Shown here: positions 20,368 to 61,200 of the stretch, in pieces
Layout: each line of letters starts with the position of its first letter
Position numbering within the stretch: position 1 is the stretch's first letter
Source: Phoronis australis
Taxonomy: Eukaryota; Animalia; Phoronida
Reading direction: 5' to 3'
NCBI GenBank assembly: GCA_002633005.1
Contig: NMRA01000012.1
Span: 2,062,550-2,126,549 of the forward strand
DNA: 64,000 nucleotides
Notes under the pieces: generated by a model
The model's input: only the letters and a program-made list of their open reading frames with translations
Databases searched by the model: none
Told to the model about the DNA's origin: nothing
Program-made: the position numbers and the translations under genes

Positions 20368-23300
20368 ATGGCGAACGTCTTGAAGTTGTCGCAAGCTTTA
20401 CCTTTGGAGAAAAATACGTATAGGCATAAGGTATTTTAATGAAGTGAGACAGTCAAAGTGTCCATGTTGCGTCAGTAATGTTTGTATAAACAATAGCTGG
20501 ATTATTTAGGAATACAGTAGCCCTAATAGTCTGATTTGGTTGATTGTGTACATATGTTCCGTTGTTTACTCTACAAATTTAGGGCTATTTAGGCAATGAC
20601 CATCGCCTCTGCTGGCTCTACCAACAGAGGCGATGGTCATTGCGTACATTCAAGTCAAATGTCAATTTAGTAGACACATAGACAGTGACCACAGTGACTA
20701 GCTAACCCCGGTATAGACAGCGACCACTGTCTCAAGCTGGCCAGTAGAGACGGTGTAGCTCTAAGCCAAGGGCTTCATACACTGGAAATTTTTCTGCAAA
20801 TTATGCCTCACAGCGACTAAACATCAACTCAAAGTCATGTTGTTATAAATAACTTTTGCGCATGGAGCCATAGAGGACACCTTAGGGCTTAGGCCGATGT
20901 CTTTAATTCCTTCCAACTCTAATAAATTCTCCCGTTATCAAACTTTTTCATCAAGCAGTTGATCCTTCGTTCAGTTGCCAAAATCGGAAGCTGGCCATTT
21001 CTAACACTGCGCGCAGCAGGTGGTATGACGTCATTCCCCTGGCAGAACTTCTCGAAGAAAAATTTTGATAATGGGAGTATTTGTTTGAGTTGGAAGGAAT
21101 TAAAGACATTGATGGCCTCAAGGTGTCCCTCTTGCGCAAAAGGTACTTAGTCACAAAGTGACTTTGATTTCCTAATCAGTGTCAGGCATAATTTGATGAA
21201 AAGCTTCCAGCGTATGAAGCTCCTATAGCAGCTACGCCGTCCCTACTGATCCAGCTAAATGCAGTGGTAGTGGTCACTGTCTTGCCCCGGTAGAGACGGT
21301 GAAGCTCCTATGGGAGTTGTTAGATGTTTTCAGCATGACAACCACTTTGTTTTGTTAGGGTGAGCAAACCACTACTATGGTCGAAATGCAGCAAGAGCAT
21401 TCATTTGCCATAATTCATAGTTTTCACAAGCTCACAGCAAACCGTGGAAAATGAGCCATCAAAATGTTTGAGCTTCCCATTACAAAAAATGGGGACTTTA
21501 ATGAATATTTTTGAAAAATTAAAAAGTAATATGAGTACTCACATTTTTCACTCACCTTAAGTTCTTGTGACTTCAAATTTTCTGCTGCTGAATGACCATT
21601 ACTGAACCAATTTTAATGGTATACATCAAACTATGTGCAAAAATACTGCTTTCAATCCTCAATGTACACGTTTTAGTTTTTTGTTTTACTTTACTGTCTT
21701 ACCACTTTCTCACCTGAAAAATCGTGAAAGTGTACAAGCAATGTCATAATCACTAATTCACTTGTCATAAAATTCCAGTTTATTTCACCTTTTCCATTTA
21801 GGAACTCTTCCAAAAAGGTAAACTTAGTAATTTTCCAAGTACCATGATGACCTTGTTAGGGTTCAAGCTAAACTCAAACCTGACTAGTTTGTTTAAGTCT
21901 TATAGTACAATTTATTTATGTTTAATCAAAGGTACACACCGTTTTATGGTATGCTCTATAATTATGATTGCAAAAACAATAAATATATCTTACTTGGAAA
22001 AATAATTCACATACCCACACAGGATTTCAAATAAATGACACAATGAAAATACTCCTTTTGAATTTTTTTAATTTTTTTTTAATTTCATTTTTTGCAATTG
22101 TATCAAAATTTGTTTGTTGTTCATAAGAAACATTTTACAAGACCGTAGTACTTCTTAAAGTGTCCAGTCATTTCCAATGTGATAAGTTGTTCTCTTTCAA
22201 AACAGCCCTTGTCCAACTTAGCTTCATGGGCAAAAATGTCTTGTCACAAACAAGTCAATGATGAAGTTTTCAACTATTGATCTTCTTCCTGCAAAATAGT
22301 TTGTGGTTTGGTGGGACACCAACCTTGTTTAACTCCAAACTGGTGTTTCAGTGCTGTAGTTTCATGTTTTTCATTTTTTTAAAACATCAGAAGCGAAATA
22401 AATGCCATTACTTTAATAATGTGATGTGCCACAAGAATGTCCCCATTTAAAATGTTTGGACCCGTTTCATTCTTTTCTATGTGCGTCTTAATATGGAGTA
22501 GCAGTGACACCTGTTGCCAAAATATAAACCACACATCTGCATTTTTCTTGTGTTGGAAACTGCAGCTTTGATGACTCGTACAGAATATCAAGCTAGTTAA
22601 GGTGATATGATAAACTTTATAACAGCAATTTGACTTGAGATCACCGAAAAACAGTGCACTCATTGTTCAACCAATATCTGTAATACCTGTTTGGTAAGCT
22701 ATTTGGTTGTTTTCGTAAATTTAGACATAAAAGTCTTGATCCACACAGTTTTTTAGTAAAAAAGCTCACTTCAAGGGAGCAGTTTTTGTAACTTAGATGT
22801 AAAAGCCTTGTTCTACGCATTTTTTGTAGGGGTTTACTGGCTAATGGTTGTGGGGATGGGGGTAAATAATGCATCATTGGAATCATGGACACCCTGGAAT
22901 ATTGGGAACCCCATTTTGGACACCCTATTTTTGAAATCCTGGATAGAGCCCTGTGTGATGTCTATGCCGTGTTGTTAACATATTTTTAAAGGACCCTCCA
23001 TCTTGTTTCAGCATAACAGTGAACAATGGTTTCCCAAATATACTGTTGGCATTTTGTGTGGCCTGAAATTAAGGAGTGCTGTTTGCTAAAAGAAGACTTG
23101 CTTTGAGGCTCTAAAATTGAAATAACTCGAGAACCGTCCAATTTGATGTCTAAAGCTATCATTTGAAACTATTTTCAAGTGTTCCTGGTGAATACTGCTT
23201 TGCACACCCTAGCAAAATGTAGATGACCATTAACAGTTGTCCAGTGCTGTGAATAGTTCAGCTGGTACTGTTGCAGTTTTGTTTGAATTCTCTTGACTAT

Positions 23301-49281: not shown

Positions 49282-52200
49282 TTAACTTGACCCTTTCTGT
49301 TTCTTTAGTTTTTTCATCTCCCTGTCGTATTCATTCCTTTTCTCAGTCAATCGTTTTACCTGAAACCAACATTCATTGAATATTAATGATACTAGCCTTT
49401 AGCCACAGTACCGTCAAGCACTTAAAAATAACGATGAAAACGTACAAATTCATGGTAAAAGACAGGATTTTGTTTTAACACTAAAACATCTTCAGGTGAT
49501 TACAGGTTGAACACAGAATGTTCAGAGATCAGTTAAACCACGCAAGATATATAAACAGGGGTTCTTATCAAATTCATATGAATTTCTACAAAAATCCTTA
49601 ATGATAAATTGCCAATAAGCTGATTGCTGAGGCGCCCTCCCTGTCATAACATACCTCCTGGGCTTTCCTCTTCTTTGAGTGCATAATCTTGTTGTAGAGT
49701 CGTTTCTTCTTTTTAGGAATCATCATCTCCGCCAGCCTTCTCTCCTCATCTTGTTGTTTCTTAAGTTTGCGCCCCACGTCCTCACGTTCCACAGTACCCT
49801 GCTCCACTGACATGCTGCTTGTGTTCAATGACTGAAATACAATAAATAATGGGACGTACAAACACGCACACATCTACACTGGTGTTCAGAGGTCCACAGA
49901 GGAAAATGCACAGGTTTGCTTGTTGTCAGTAGATCTGGGCACGTGAGTCCTACCCAGACACAATGTACCCATTAACAAGATACGTGACACAACCCTAATC
50001 CTACGCACACTCATTCACCCTTAATCCAACTAAGATATATCACTAAGACCAAAACTTGCTCAAGGATACAAGGCTCAGCCATAATCACAATAGTTACATC
50101 GTTCAAATGGAAAAAAAACGTTAGACTACACCGGGACCCAGACTGTAAGAGGCATGACTCCACCCTAACCGAAGTAAAAAAAATAAACAGCTTATCCCTA
50201 ATCAAATTCGAAAACAAAGGGCTCAATCCAACCCGAACCTGAAGACTCAAGACTTAGTCCTGTGCCAACTTGAAAACATAGGCCTCAATCCCACTTTACT
50301 TGAAGATACATGGCCCAATCCCACCCAAATTGAAGACAAATCATATTGAACAACCCTGTCCCAACATGAAGGCACATGAACCAACCCTAGCCCAACATGA
50401 AGACATGTCGACAAATCCCAATCAACTCTGAAGCATGTGGAACTATCCCAACCCAATTTGAAAATACAAAGTTCAATTACACATGACTCAACACCAACCC
50501 AACTCGAATACACATAGCTCTTCTATAAACTTATGTTAAAGCACATGGCTTTGTACCTTGCTTTCATCAGCTTTCCTCTTGTTACGCTTGACTGGTGTTT
50601 TCTCTTCAGCCTCACTGTCTTCTGAAAACACAACAAATGTATGTAAGATGTTAGGCAAACACTATGAACACACAGCATATGTCGGATGTTAGGCAAACAC
50701 TATGAACACACAGCATATGTCGGATGTTAGGCAAACACTATGAACACACAGCATATGTCAAATGTTAGGCAAACACTATGAACACACAGCATATGTCAAA
50801 TGTTAGGCAAACACTATGAACACACAGCATATGTCAAATGTTAGGCAAACACTATGAACACACAGCATATGTCAAATGTTAGGCAAACACTATGAACACA
50901 CAGCATATGTCAAATGTTAGGCAAACACTATGAACACACAGCATATGTCAAATGTTAGGCAAACACTATGAACACACAGCATATGTCAAATGTTAGGCAA
51001 ACACTATGAACACACAGCATATGTCAAATGTTAGGCAAACACTATGAACACACAGCACATGTCAAATGTTAGGCAAACACTATGAACAAACAGCACATGT
51101 CAAATGTTAGGCAAACACTCTGAACACACAGCATATGTCAGATGTTAGGCAAACACTATGAAAACAATCAGAGTACAACATAAGTTGCACCTTTTTACTA
51201 GGATTTTTGGTGATGTAGAATGAAGACGTTTTATGTGGATGTGATCAACGTCATTATTCTAGGTCCTTAACAGCAGTTCTGATCAAACATCAAGAATCTA
51301 GCGTACAACTCTTTTGTGTTGTAAAAGCACGAAAATGACTTCAATTTGACTCAATTTTGACTCAATTTCAAATTTCCAGTGGTCATATAAGGTACAGTTA
51401 CGATAACTATCAACCACTTTCAAATTTCATTAAATAACTTTTTAAATGTCCATTGTCAACCTCTAAAATTTTCTGAATCATCGATGACTGAAAAATCTTT
51501 ATTTAAGCCTTAAAACGTCACACAAACAGTAATAACAAACAGCAACAATGAACACTGTGACTTCGTGTTTTAACTGTATATTCTGACCGTAAACAAAAGG
51601 GGACAGTGAATTAGATTTTTAATCTATCACTGCACAAATTTGATAACAGCCCTCAAAGTCACCTTGCAAAACATTCATTTTTGATGGCCAATATCTACAT
51701 TAATCGAAGGATAATAAAAAACAGGGACACTGTTCCTTAAGTAAGTGTGCAAAATTTCGTGCAAATCCACTCACACACTAAGGTGAAATCATGCAAAACT
51801 GTAAAAGTCATCGAAAATTGAATGGCTGATAATAAAGATTCGCCAAAAGTAAATAAAGTCAAATGAAATTGCAGTTAAAATTTGCATATCTTCATAAAAT
51901 GCATTTAAATAAATGTAATGAGTAGCAATGAACTGATTTAATTTCATGGAATATGATAGACTGGGAGCAAACAGCAGTTCATCAATATGAGTATCTGTGG
52001 GGTAACAATCACATGGGACTACCTGCTGATAGGACTATTGTCACACTAGCGCCACCTGGTTTAATTTCATGGAATATGATAGATTGGGAGCATAAAGCAG
52101 TTCATCAGTATGAGTATCTGTGGGGTGACAATCACATGTGACTACTTGTTGATAGGACTATTGTCACACTAGCGCCACCTGGTACATCTTAAGTCATTCA

Positions 52201-55200: not shown

Positions 55201-58200
55201 CTGTATTTATAAAAGATCATCTTTAACGTATTAATAGTATTCACTATATCCTGACCCATCCACTTTCCCCAAAATTTTCCAAATGATTTACTACTTTAGC
55301 TCGACAGACCATTGACTCTTGAGACTGCTGACCAATCACACGCAGTGTGTCTCAATTTTTGACATTTGACTGAGCAAGATAGTGTAAATAGAGAACGGTA
55401 CGTGTCGACAATGCCACACACAAAGGTGAACAACGTTTCCATTCAGCAATGCTATCTCTCCAAATAACATCACACCCATGCGAAATCTTACAAGATAACC
55501 TTAGCGTGTACCATGATCAATAGCATTACGACGTATCATATGAGACAATCGCATTTCGAAAATGAAGCCACAGAACAGACCTGATCATGAAGGTCAATGA
55601 TTCTCGAGACACTTCTCGGTTCAAGTAGAATTTCAGTCCTTGGAATAAACTCTTGAACTTCTTCAAGTTGTCTTCCTCCAGCTTCGCCTCCTCCACTGTG
55701 TCCGGGTCATCTGACTAAACAAGCAGAATAGTAGAATAAAAGGTACAATACGGCATGCTCCAGCTTAATTTCACAACTTGCGTAAACTGGTGATTGATTG
55801 CAGATCAAGTGAACTTATAAGTTATGGTAAGATTTGAAAAATTAAAACCTTAAAAGTTGTATTCTGCCACAACGATATCAATCAACCCCTTATTAGGAGA
55901 ATTCTGATGCCTGATCCTTATTCAGTCTCAATTTGAATTTCCAGTTGAGAATTTTTGACTCTGGACAACGAAACTACTATTCTTGAACGCCTTGGGATTT
56001 TCTATTTTAGTTCAGACGTCCACAAAATGTGCAAGACCAGTGCTTCAGTATTAAATTTATTACATGACCAGTGATACTTCTGTCTTATAACTGGCTAAAA
56101 ACTAGCACGATAACTTCAGATATACCATAATATTGACCAAGCGGGTCACGGACTATCACCTTTCATTCGTGCCGACAAGTGTCACTACTTGTGACCTGAC
56201 CGATCAGATGCTGAACAAACCCTGAATACGAAGCGAGCATACGATGCAAGAACATGAAAGCAGGTAAGAACAAGCAGATCAAATGAGAGTGTGGAAAGAA
56301 GCACCAGAGGTCATATAATAAAACAAATGTAGCATCAATCATATTGGCTAATATGGACCGCGGGCAACATTTCTCTACAGAAGAATCGGCTAATACAATA
56401 CAAGACAAAAGTAATCAGACAAAATTCTGTTTCCCCGTCATGTCGACTAATTCCGTTAACAGCAACAAGAGCAACGCAGAGCGTTGAAATGCGCCCACAA
56501 TTGCACCGCATACGGTATCCCTCTAGGGTTGTTTATTGGTACCATAAAGTGGCCAGTAGAGGGCATATATGTAGTATGTTGTACTTTGCAAAATGGAAAG
56601 GCATGGTCCTTGTCTCCTCAATAGGCTAGGGGCAAAATGTGAGTAATCTTCATAATACAAGCACATCCTATACACCAGTTGCTTAAAGCACCACAGAAAC
56701 ATAGAATTAAAAACAAATTTACCAACATACGAGATTAGCACAGCATTAGAATGCCAGAAACAAATTTCTACTTGGAACTTTTCCTTCACAGTCACGAAGT
56801 AACACANGATAGAGCAGCGGACGCCGGACGCCAGACGCCGGACGGACGCCGCCCGCCCGGACGCCGCCCGGACGGACTGACAGACGGACGGACGGACAGA
56901 GATGACGGCATAATGCGTCCACATATAAATATGTGGGCGCATACAAATGACTGGTAATAACTACTAGTGCATCAAAATTCCACAAACAGAATGGCCTAAC
57001 CATCTTACTGACTTTAACCCTTTATTCTCAGTCATGAAGGAACACAAGGTTGATGATGAATTCTGCTTCTGTCAAGCCGTCATGACGGCATTCCAGGTCA
57101 TTTTGTCTGAATACTTTTGGCTTGTACTGTATCTATATATGCAAATTCACTTGCATTCAATGCATGACTTAAAACGCTTACGATAGGAAAGTCGTCCACT
57201 TCAGGCTCATCTCCACTTTCCTGTAGTGTGTTTCGGAGACTCTGGGTCAATGCTGATAAACGCTGGAAAGAAAAAAGACAGCTCCGATTTACTATCACCC
57301 AATGCTGCCACACGTGTTTGAGAAAGGTCACATAAAAAACAAGACTTCTACTCAGCAAGCAGCATTTTTACTCCATAATAATCATGTTTATAAATAAGCA
57401 TGCTCACATTTCTCCCCTCCCTTACATATTATTGAAGCCAGTTTCCTACTATTTGTGCAGAGCTGCTGTACAAGACTGTTATTTAGTTCAGTATCCAGCT
57501 GCACAAGAAACAAATCTCCCTGCTTCATTGCACCGATCCTGTAACTTGTAGAGCATACTGTTAGTCTATTGGCAGTTTCTGATCTGTACAGAATGCCAGT
57601 ATACAGCTATACACAGGCAAATTTACACCATTACAATAAGACATGTCTTAAAGGCGAAGGCAACCTTTTTCCATGTCATTTTGAGCTAAAATAAGGTTGG
57701 TTGGTTATCCTAGACATATTTTTCACTTAATTACAGCTTTTCGTAATTTTATTAATTACTCGTCCGCTTTTCCGGAAGTGACGTTTTAGGAGGCAAGCGC
57801 TTCCCGCCACTTGGTTTTGCGTTGAGCTTACTGTGCGAATCTGTTCTATTCTACTTTTGTTTTGTGCTATTTTTCACCAATTGTCGCCACCACTTTCCAT
57901 CGGCGAGTATTCTGCGGCAAGATAGGTTAGTAGAGAACTCAACTGCGTTGGATTTAGGGATTGTTTAGTGTGTTGTAAGCTGAAAATGGCTGGAGTCGGT
58001 GACCCGTATCACAGTGACAGTAGTGTGAGTGACGGAGACCTTGTTCACAGCAGTGGTGACGAGGAATTTTTTCACGGACATTCAGTGGGTGGGTACATGT
58101 TTGAGCCCGAGTACAACGAGGCAGAGTACACACAGGCACAGGCAGCTGTTGAGAGAAACGAGGCGGCTACTGAAGACAGACGTGGTGACACATCTTGGTG

Positions 58201-61200
58201 CAAATGCACTGTGTGCGTTGTTATGCCTACCTCAATTGAATGCTTGTGCTGTTCCGAGTTCCACATCAATTATCTTTTTGGTCTCTTCCTCCATTAGAGT
58301 GTATGTGGTATACTTGGCGGACCGCCCTGGTGAGTCAGACAAGTTCTCCTTCTCCATGAATTCCGCCACCAACTCGAGATGTTGTGACATGTATGCGTCA
58401 TTGACAACTGGTATTAAATAGGAATTCTGAATGTTGTTGAATGTTGTTTTCGAAAAAAAACTTGACTTTTCCAAAGTCCATCATTGTCTTCACCGACTGA
58501 AACGTGTTTCCAGTGAAGAGCACACCACTGGACATGGTTAAGTGGACCTCCGGCATACCACGGACAGAGGAACAACTGTCCCACTTGCCAGAGTGTCCCG
58601 TGACACACTCCCACTGGATGGTGACCTGAGCACCCAAACTGCTTACATTGTGTCGTGTGACTCCCTCGCCACACACCTGGCACCTTCTAAATAGCTCCAA
58701 CACTTTAGACAAGTCCACAATAAACTTATCAAAGTTTGGCTCACCGATCTGTTCACTGGACGACGAACTGTCCTCTTCACTGGGTGTCGAACTGGGCCTG
58801 TAATCACTCCCACTACTCAATATCGCTGCAGGGCTGCTTAGAGGCTCTGGGCTGGAGAAAACAGCACAGGGCGAATCACTACTGGTTCCAGGAATTGCAC
58901 GCTCTGGGGTACGTTCGGAGGCACGGGTGACAGTAGATGAAGTGCCTCCACTGGCTCCAGTCACTGTACTGGCCACAGCTCGCGAGGCTTCTCGCTTCAA
59001 AAACGCACTTCTCGGGGGTGGCGACGGGGCACTGCCGGGAATCAACACAGACGGAATGGCATCCTTCTTCAAGCGTTGTTTCGCGGGGACCTTCATCAGT
59101 TCAGCGTACAAATCCCTTTCGTAATCGGACGGCAGAAAGTGCTTGCCACACACACGGTAATTCTCCACTGCTTTGTACGTTGCGTGGACGGGTAACGCTG
59201 CGTTCTTCACACGAACGAGCCAAGTACGGCGAAGTGTGTCATCCATCGGAAAGCGATGCAAAGTAACTCCCAAAGCGCGCGTGAGCCGATAATTACTACA
59301 TCCCGGTACGCAGCAACAGTGTGGCATGTTGACTGACTAGTAAATGAAAGCGAACGACGACGGAACTTAACACAACCGAGGTAGAACAATGACTGACTCG
59401 GCAGCTCTCACAGTCAGACTATGTGAAAAGAAATTGGCGGGAAGCGCTTGCCTCCTAAAACGTCACTTCCGGAAAAGCGGACGAATAATTAATAAAATTA
59501 CGAAAAGCTGTAATTAAGTGAAAAATATGTCTAGGATAACCAACCAACCTTATTTTAGCTCAAAATGACATGGAAAAAGGTTGCCTTCGCCTTTAATGTG
59601 TCCGAATGACATATCACAAACATCAAGTTTCACACCAAAGTTGGAAACCTATTACACACAGCAAAGCACAGAAATCCAGCACCACAATATGACACAAGTT
59701 AATGTGTCCACAAAGACTACCACAAAAATCTAGCTTCCCAGTAGGACACCTATTAACGTGTCTGTGCGACATACCTCCTCCAGTTTCTCATTGTCCAGAC
59801 ACTTGTCCTTGGTGTCCTCGTCATGCGAGTCCAGTGCTAGTCGTGGGGGATAATGCAAGTTCATTGAAGTATACAGCTTGTAATTAACAAAGCCCAGCAT
59901 GGTAGTGTAGAACTCCACAAAGGTGGCCATGATCTTATAATCCACATCACTCGGATGCTGTAAACAAGAGGAAAAAATAGTTGTTAGAGCTGAATCCAGG
60001 TTTACACAGCACCTGAAGAAGCGCGAGATGAATGCCTAACCACAACCATGACTCGGTTGCAAAGAAGCGATGGACCAGGTTTCAATACTGTAACACCTGG
60101 GTTGGGCTGCACAAACTTCGAAACTAATCCGCCGGATAAGTTTGATTGTATTATGACGTCAAGTTCATTGTTCAACAGTGGCAACGTGGTGTACAGAGCC
60201 AGGGCATTTGAGTTATAGGTGAAACAATGCATTTTAGGAACATTTAAACATGCAGCAACCTTAAATGTTAAGACATACTATTTCTTCAGGACATTTGGCC
60301 AATCATCTTTTTTCTTGTCTTCTTACAATCATATTATTCTAAGTATTGTGAAAGTTAATAAAATACAGATTAGTTACAACCACTCCAATAAAAAAAAATT
60401 AACAAAAGCTGTGAATTTTGTATTTGAATTAACACTTTTGTTCATCCCACAATGTAAACAGCTTTGAACCTAAAGCCATTGCCTATTCTTCGAATATAAA
60501 GCCATACTCGAATATAAGGCTATGGCATTTGTGCAGGGTTTTACGGTATGAGACTCCCCATCTCACAATGATGACTAATTCTTACAGCAGAGAATGCACA
60601 AGGTCAGGTGGGAGTTAATGAGTTAACGAAGACCACTTTAGAACATGTAAGACACAATTGCAGATACGTACAAGATTTCAAGAAAAAACACCAATTATTA
60701 TAAAACACATATTGGGGTCAATCTTCCAAATGCAGTCCAAAAATACTAGGCACGCTTATAACCCAGCCCCTTTTTATGAGCTTGGTACCTGAACGCAGAT
60801 TTGCCATGTGTGAATTTCAAATCAAGATAACGTTTGTTTTAAAGGCAACAAAACATAAGTTTTTAAACTAGTGACCATTTAGAGGGACCAGGACTTCATT
60901 AAGACATAAATGGCTCATTCAGCCATTTGGTTATGGATGGAAGTCTGCTTAGAGTACTGCAAAAATTGTAAGACTTGAAAATTTCTCTCATTAAAGACAA
61001 TAGGAGCATACTCGTGAGTTTCAATCAGGAGTTTGGATCATTTCTGTTGTATCTTAAATATCACACTACCTGCACACTATTCTTCAGACACACATTTACA
61101 GGTTCACAAGTAAAGATTGTGTGCATTCTAGTGTGGCCATGAGAGAACTCACCTCATATCCAAACTTATGTGGCACAATCCAGTTGATGGTCTGACCCAT

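What the first reader, a model, noticed from the sequence alone, without database searches (positions are those of the whole stretch)
57648..59596. Two-gene Kolobok-type transposon: THAP transposase and P2X7-ballast/nanor-like protein facing each other, fused by deletion
Seen: TTAA duplication, 158-bp TIRs with one mismatch, a THAP + C2CH transposase ORF on minus, and a plus-strand ORF with YMFEPEY and WCxCxxCxxMPTxxECLCCxE. The two join near 58257-58260. Established: Kolobok elements target TTAA and encode a THAP/DDE transposase plus an accessory protein (KolX) related to the P2X7 C-terminal ballast domain and nanor. The biochemical role of that accessory protein is poorly understood. Inference: near-identical TIRs suggest a young insertion mobilised in trans, so an intact two-component autonomous family may exist in this genome.
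Basis: partly seen in the sequence, partly recalled or inferred. Interest (0 to 1): 0.8.

Follow-up and report, generated by a model that had tools for sequence, protein, structure and literature searches.

The report
Deleted Kolobok transposon from multicopy family
This is an internally deleted copy of a known kind of animal jumping gene (Kolobok), sitting in an intron of the pescadillo gene; copies with the same break are abundant, so it was likely spread by an intact relative, which makes it a correct but ordinary finding.

Summary
Observation confirmed. A 1,941-bp element (57652-59592) lies between two TTAA, with 158-bp terminal inverted repeats (one mismatch), in a pescadillo intron. It holds the 5' part of a THAP-type Kolobok transposase (minus strand) and the 5' half of a KolX/P2X7-ballast gene (plus strand), joined at 58256-58261. 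It cannot move itself: a frameshift, a 21-bp loss of the first catalytic Asp motif and the large deletion remove the catalytic core. Reads suggest roughly 150 copies share this junction in one sample, a commoner sister has another junction, and that sample probably lacks this insertion. No intact parent was seen and no genome was available, so the 'autonomous family' inference is open. In public contigs, 10 of 10 related families with enough flank carry a convergent KolX-like gene. The transposase+KolX design and the P2X7/nanor link are published (PMC9587614), and this scan noted three such elements in other genomes. One lead: a CRE-like motif lies in both ends of all 7 families examined, possibly mirror promoters. 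New member of a known kind; low interest.

The parts
57648..57651 (.). TTAA target-site duplication, left
57652..57809 (+). 158-bp terminal inverted repeat at the KolX end; starts AGGCGAAGG; holds CCGGAAGTGACGT at 57772-57784 (ETS-CRE-like, name recalled)
57986..58261 (+). 5' half of KolX (P2X7 ballast/nanor-like): acidic N-terminus, Y-x-F-E-P motif, WCxCxxC and CxCC clusters; runs on 11 junk codons to a stop at 58295-58297
   Evidence: Pfam PF20478; Atlas best cluster P2RX7_C 0.94; HMM of relatives E 1e-19
58256..58261 (.). deletion junction; GAGTTC reads E-F in KolX and E-L in the transposase (inferred 6-bp microhomology)
58256..58452 (-). out-of-frame transposase continuation (…LIPVV…[15 protein letters not shown]…IIDVEL), ending at residue 419 of 737 of relative P0174
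58337..58338 (-). site of a 21-bp loss that removes the G-D-G-R motif with the first catalytic Asp; a sister contig in run X5 has the 21 letters
58453..58460 (-). A8/T8 run with the frameshift
   Evidence: length variants
58398..59327 (-). 309-aa ORF: THAP domain (aa 5-94), low-complexity linker, CxxC...C...H cluster; no catalytic residues
59435..59592 (-). 158-bp terminal inverted repeat at the transposase end
59593..59596 (.). TTAA target-site duplication, right
57263..59774 (-). host GT-AG intron of pescadillo (PES1): 2,512 bp with the element, 567 bp without; upstream exon 59957-59775, next exon starts at 57262
   Evidence: Pfam Pescadillo_N E 3.5e-18; splice sites

Best explanation
The element is a non-autonomous, internally deleted derivative of a Kol0-type Kolobok cut-and-paste DNA transposon that was likely copied to many TTAA sites, including this pescadillo intron, by a transposase supplied in trans. 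Shown: TTAA flanks, intact ends, both gene stumps facing each other, loss of the catalytic core, and the same junction in other records. Inferred: a parent of about 4.5-5.5 kb with a complete THAP-DDE transposase and a convergent KolX lost about 2.5-3.5 kb by joining at a 6-bp microhomology; the 21-bp loss came later; the derivative then amplified to the order of 100 copies because the ends, which the transposase would recognise, stayed intact; this insertion is probably polymorphic. The KolX stump keeps two of the three cysteine clusters and lacks the third cluster and the GDP-contact region, so it is predicted not to fold as a ballast domain.
For: Ends and TSD fit the published Kolobok definition (PMC9587614). 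tblastn with 150 relatives shows co-linear transposase homology across the frameshift up to 58256 with a 7-residue gap against the closest relative P0001; 59 of 63 relatives with a DSPG-like motif have the Asp four residues before it, and the paper's DDE alignment starts at this motif for Kolobok_1_XT, _1_BF, _1_NV, _1_AP. A contig in run X5 spans the junction and has the 21 letters. One 100-bp contig in run X1 spans the junction with 0 differences at depth 5,743 against 38-39 for the unique flanks, about 150-fold. A 197-bp piece in run X6 (other study) spans both deletions with 0 differences, and an ENA record holds the identical 103-aa junction ORF (P0153). A second junction (58261 plus 13 letters to 58523) is in X1, X6, X7, X10 and as a loose end in X5, X8, X11 (also P0151, P0154). 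10 of 10 related clusters with at least 2.5 kb downstream have a convergent KolX-like ORF; 16 of 80 loci gave paired TTAA-bounded ends, 13 of them 4.4-5.6 kb long.
Against: No intact parent was observed: one search lists no loose end that continues the transposase past the junction (34 loose ends were not shown), and the metagenome scan for the terminal 28 bases found 0 matches. Contig depth is a rough measure; the tool warns that summed depths are no copy number. The empty site in X1 is inferred from contig geometry, not read letter by letter. Placement in Kol0 rests on motifs and gene content, not on a tree with Repbase sequences. The window's Pfam P2RX7_C score only just passes the cut-off, and phmmer of the stump against the PDB found nothing.
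Confidence: 0.93

Rival explanations
1. The derivative was amplified selectively because its 309-aa THAP-plus-zinc-finger product binds the ends and represses transposition, like the KP deletion derivative of the Drosophila P element (recalled, not from a call).
For: The ORF 59327-58398 is open with a full THAP domain; both known junction types keep this region; RNA reads cover it.
Against: RNA reads lie about equally on both strands (for example 383 and 415 at 58724-58837) in a library whose pescadillo exon reads lie on one strand, and no start site stands out; many reads carry small indels inside the ORF (table 4). Keeping the ends explains amplification without any protein function.
Confidence: 0.05
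2. The copy inserted intact and was deleted on the spot (a single decayed insertion), or the junction is an assembly artefact.
For: Three separate lesions are present.
Against: The same junction, with 0 differences, is in runs X1 and X6 and in ENA record P0153, at about 150 times flank depth in X1; X6 has no coverage of the unique flanks yet holds the junction.
Confidence: 0.02

Closest known systems
Kolobok superfamily, Kol0 (Kolobok0) lineage, type Kolobok-1_XT; also Kolobok-1_BF, Kolobok-1_NV (Kojima and Bao 2022, PMC9587614)
   Same: TTAA target, 5'-RR/YY-3' ends, transposase plus KolX, DSPG-x-SAKY-x-YT-x-M signature after the first catalytic Asp, KolX similar to the P2X7 ballast and nanor
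   Different: This copy lacks all three catalytic residues and the C-terminal half of KolX; a new family in an unnamed animal (closest protein found, P0001, is 48% identical over its first 262 residues)
Xenopus T2-MITE and XKol elements (Hikosaka and Konishi 2018, PMC6004289)
   Same: Non-autonomous, high-copy, TTAA-flanked Kolobok derivatives; an XKol end AGGAGAAGGAAAGGCT resembles AGGCGAAGGCAACCTT; THAP-type transposase
   Different: T2-MITEs are short and non-coding with an AGGRR end; this one is 1.9 kb, starts AGGCG and keeps stumps of both genes
P2X7 cytoplasmic ballast / ZCD / nanor proteins (Rump et al. 2020, PMC7016195; Pfam PF20478)
   Same: WCxCxxC and CC clusters
   Different: Third cluster (PSC...IR) and the residues that contact GDP in rat P2X7 fall in the deleted part
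KolobokP (PMC9587614)
   Same: Kolobok transposase with a second gene on the opposite strand; non-autonomous families of 1.7-3.3 kb exist
   Different: No long terminal direct repeats and no His-Me nuclease here

Membership tests
Kolobok (non-autonomous derivative) | TTAA target-site duplication | tested here: met
Kolobok (non-autonomous derivative) | Terminal inverted repeats with 5'-RR and YY-3' termini | tested here: met
   AG...CT, 158 bp, one mismatch
Kolobok (non-autonomous derivative) | Sequence derived from a Kolobok-type transposase (THAP domain; DSPG signature at the first Asp) | tested here: met
Kolobok (non-autonomous derivative) | Many copies with the same structure | tested here: met
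   read and contig depth and independent records; loci not mapped because no genome is held
Kol0 lineage | KolX accessory gene similar to P2X7 ballast | tested here: met
   5' half only; PF20478; profile A2 against the PDB returns only P2X7 chains, best E 0.029, weak
Kol0 lineage | Grouping with Kolobok-1_XT in a tree of the DDE core | not tested
   the core is deleted here and the reference sequences were only read in the paper's supplement
Autonomous Kolobok | Intact DDE triad, C/DxxH motif and H2CH finger in one frame | tested here: not met
   first Asp lost, remainder deleted, frameshift upstream; it is therefore not filed as autonomous
Autonomous Kolobok | An intact parent elsewhere in this genome | tested here: inconclusive
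   no genome; no listed loose end continues the genes, 34 not shown
KolobokP | Long terminal direct repeats and His-Me finger nuclease | tested here: not met
   no long direct repeat; second ORF matches P2RX7_C only
piggyBac | TTAA target with termini other than RR...YY and a piggyBac transposase | tested here: not met
   termini AG...CT; no piggyBac Pfam family among 20 relatives scanned
T2-MITE | AGGRR terminus, short, non-coding | tested here: not met
   AGGCG terminus, 1.9 kb with gene remnants

The most novel reading that the evidence does not exclude
Kol0 transposons build the same host-factor promoter module into both ends (a CRE-like site with a YY1-like or ETS-like site 120-210 bp inside each terminus), so one mirrored design drives the transposase from one end and KolX from the other; this family is still active, its hundreds of deleted copies scatter twin inward-facing promoters through introns, and its intact parent would be a live system in which to test what the ancestor of the P2X7 ballast domain does in transposition.
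Probability: 0.3. Interest if true: 0.5.

Novelty: new member of a known kind. Interest (0 to 1): 0.18.

Why it matters
As it stands it is an ordinary dead copy of a described transposon lineage and adds nothing to the published KolX-P2X7 link. Its value is as a marker: a homogeneous, probably polymorphic family implies a recently active Kol0 transposase in this animal. If an intact parent is found, excision assays with and without KolX would address the open question of what KolX does. The mirrored end motifs seen across relatives are a testable idea about how the two convergent genes are expressed.

Tried and rejected
No whole genome was held, so no genome-wide TIR search. Exact scan of metagenome contigs for the terminal 28 bases: 0 matches. 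Word-based protein search for longer KolX relatives: 0 of 89 candidates; the same for the transposase ORF timed out. Viral contigs: 0 of 95 candidate stretches confirmed. phmmer of the KolX stump against the PDB: nothing. AlphaFold2 of a complete KolX relative (L048, 13-row alignment): mean pLDDT 46.8, pTM 0.26, too poor for a fold search, which was not run. The look-up of sequencing runs listed no holder on record as RNA. No other copy of the element lies in the 64-kb window. E2F-like motif in the ends: 4 of 14 ends, shuffle maximum 4, not distinguishable from chance. His-Me nuclease, KolobokP, piggyBac, in-place decay and assembly artefact were considered and rejected (see membership and rivals). 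Figure S6 of PMC9587614 (KolX alignment) is a picture and could not be read. PMC12676858 (passages) did not bear on the end motifs.

Full report
1. Observation. The element runs from 57652 to 59592 (1,941 bp) between TTAA at 57648-57651 and 59593-59596. The arms match for 158 bp with one mismatch, and the termini are AG...CT. The inverted repeat scores 291 bits against at most 30 in 20 shuffles of the region. The minus ORF 59327-58398 (309 aa) has a THAP domain (E 8e-16) and the plus ORF 57986-58297 matches P2RX7_C at 24 bits, cut-off 23.5. The element lies in a GT-AG intron of pescadillo (Pescadillo_N E 3.5e-18; boundaries 59774-57263). The host is an animal with introns; I did not identify it.

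2. The transposase is dead. A search of 1.84 billion representatives with the 120 residues after the linker gave 382 hits, of which the best 150 were listed. Against them, homology continues in a second frame after the A8 run at 58453-58460 and stops at 58256. Full-length relatives are 733-737 aa (P0173, P0174) and the remnant ends at residue 419 of 737. Relatives read G-D-G-R-x-D-S-P-G; 59 of the 63 listed relatives with a DSPG-like motif have the upstream Asp, and the DDE alignment in the supplement of PMC9587614 begins at this motif for Kolobok_1_XT, _1_BF, _1_NV and _1_AP. The window lacks seven codons here. A contig of run X5 spans the same large junction and has 21 extra letters at 58337 that encode this motif, so the small loss likely followed the large one, unless that contig is chimeric. 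The other two catalytic residues fall in the large deletion.

3. The second ORF is KolX. Beyond Pfam, the Atlas's best cluster is P2RX7_C (0.94, 212 of 256 features; recognition below the tool's threshold, so weak on its own). A profile built from 10 segments of related loci, without the window, scores the stump at E 1e-19. A profile of the stump with 9 relatives finds only P2X7 chains in the PDB, best E 0.029; phmmer with the stump alone finds nothing. The stump has the first two of the three cysteine clusters described in PMC7016195 (passages). GAGTTC at 58256-58261 reads E-F in KolX, as sister copies do before they go on with D-E-A-K, and E-L in the transposase, as relatives do: an inferred microhomology.

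4. It is one of many copies. Seven coded runs were laid. In DNA run X1 the unique flanks have depth 38-39, while one contig across the junction (58238-58337, 0 differences) has depth 5,743, about 150-fold; this is a rough figure. Run X6, from another study and without flank coverage, has a 197-bp piece across both deletions with 0 differences; ENA record P0153 is the same 103-aa junction ORF. A commoner sister joins 58261, plus 13 letters, to 58523 (joint in X1, X6, X7, X10; loose end in X5, X8 and 145 reads of X11; proteins P0151, P0154). Summed depth over the shared parts of the element is about 1e5 in X1, which indicates a much larger family but is no count. In X1 the right-flank contig aligns from 59593 with 35 unaligned letters before it; if these are 57613-57647 they overlap the left-flank contig (ending 57642) by exactly 30, as adjacent 31-mer contigs do. 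That points to an empty site in this sample, but the letters were not shown. RNA reads (X10, X11) cover the element on both strands about equally and show no start site, so they do not show the element's own transcription. An intact parent is expected, not shown.

5. Full-length relatives. A scan of metagenome contigs gave 494 pattern matches, 305 confirmed, the best 80 kept. They fall into 38 clusters at 90% DNA identity. 10 of the 10 clusters with at least 2.5 kb downstream of the transposase have a convergent KolX-like ORF; over all 38, 12 are convergent, 2 divergent, 2 have only a fragment upstream, and 22 have no hit, all with under 2.5 kb downstream. The profile was seeded from 8 of those 10 clusters, so that count is partly by construction; independently, 9 of 9 such ORFs tested hit P2RX7_C at E 0.0011 or better, 4 of 9 above the curated cut-off. 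16 of 80 loci gave paired TTAA-bounded ends: 13 of 4.4-5.6 kb, two of 8.0 kb, one of 3.7 kb; 15 begin AGG(A/G)G. By analogy the window copy lost about 2.5-3.5 kb.

6. How it works. Shown: intact ends, TTAA flanks, no catalytic core, shared junction. Inferred from established knowledge of DDE cut-and-paste elements (PMC6004289, passages): a transposase made elsewhere binds the ends, excises the copy and inserts it at TTAA, which lets a deleted derivative outnumber its parent. The role of KolX is not addressed by this copy. A repressor role for the 309-aa product is possible by analogy with the P-element KP derivative (recalled) but has no support here.

7. What is known. PMC9587614 (parts 1-3 of 6 of the main text, passages, and parts 105-106 of supplement 3) defines Kolobok by TTAA and RR...YY ends, states that the Kol0 group encodes a transposase and KolX, that KolX resembles the P2X7 ballast, and that P2X7 and nanor likely arose from KolX. 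Its Figure S6 alignment could not be read. This scan's notes list three Kol0 elements in other genomes. The finding is a new non-autonomous member of a known kind.

8. Side lead. In six complete related families (one locus per cluster; duplicates and L048 left out) plus the window, a CRE-like TGACGT(C/T/A) lies within 260 bp of 14 of 14 ends (200 shuffles: mean 0.52, maximum 3; interior tiles 4 of 218) and a YY1-like CCGCCATNTT in 11 of 14 ends, none of them the window's (shuffle mean 0.01; tiles 1 of 218). The window has CCGGAAGTGACG in both arms and nowhere else in 64 kb. The motifs keep their position even where the two ends of an element are only about 70% alike (L004), and in L059 and L079 the KolX start follows the CRE-like site within about 40 bp. 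Limits: the patterns were chosen after looking, their names are recalled, the two ends of long-TIR families are not independent, and the sites could instead be transposase-binding sites. Two searches (Kolobok with YY1: 0 papers; Kolobok with terminal inverted repeats, promoter and CREB: 1 paper, not on this point) did not find it in print; most subscription papers and Repbase were not searched.

9. Verdict. Real, correctly identified, already explained in kind. Interest 0.18.

Noticed in passing
L004, L027, L034, L054, L059, L079 (first and last 260 bp of each element); window 57772-57784 and 59460-59472: CRE-like site in both ends of all 7 families examined, YY1-like site in 11 of 12 ends of relatives, ETS-CRE-like site in the window's arms; possible mirror promoters for the two convergent genes.
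   Followed up: partly
window 58261-58523: A commoner sister derivative skips this stretch and makes a 131-aa KolX fusion ORF (P0151, P0154).
   Followed up: partly
L048, L051, L052: Relatives in which an intronless KolX lies upstream of the transposase and points away from it (divergent), unlike the usual convergent layout.
   Followed up: no
L001-L006, L027, L034-L038, L059-L064: KolX is split by introns in many relatives (for example between W and C of the first cysteine cluster), while the window's 5' half is intronless.
   Followed up: no
window 56393-56425 and 57100-57132: 33-bp inverted arms (91%) around about 700 bp with a GGAC-rich stretch at 56818-56905; very high read depth at 56900-57130: another high-copy repeat in the next pescadillo intron.
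   Followed up: no
window 50621-51166, 20587-21268, 51933-52183: A tandem array with a unit near 38 bp, a roughly 570-bp palindromic element, and a 128-bp tandem duplicate.
   Followed up: no
P0026, P0027, P0050, P0173-P0176: Named fish proteins annotated as uncharacterised carry THAP plus this transposase region; P0026 and P0027 lack the DSPG motif and may be domesticated, and P0175 is a gene model that fuses it with a mannosidase.
   Followed up: no
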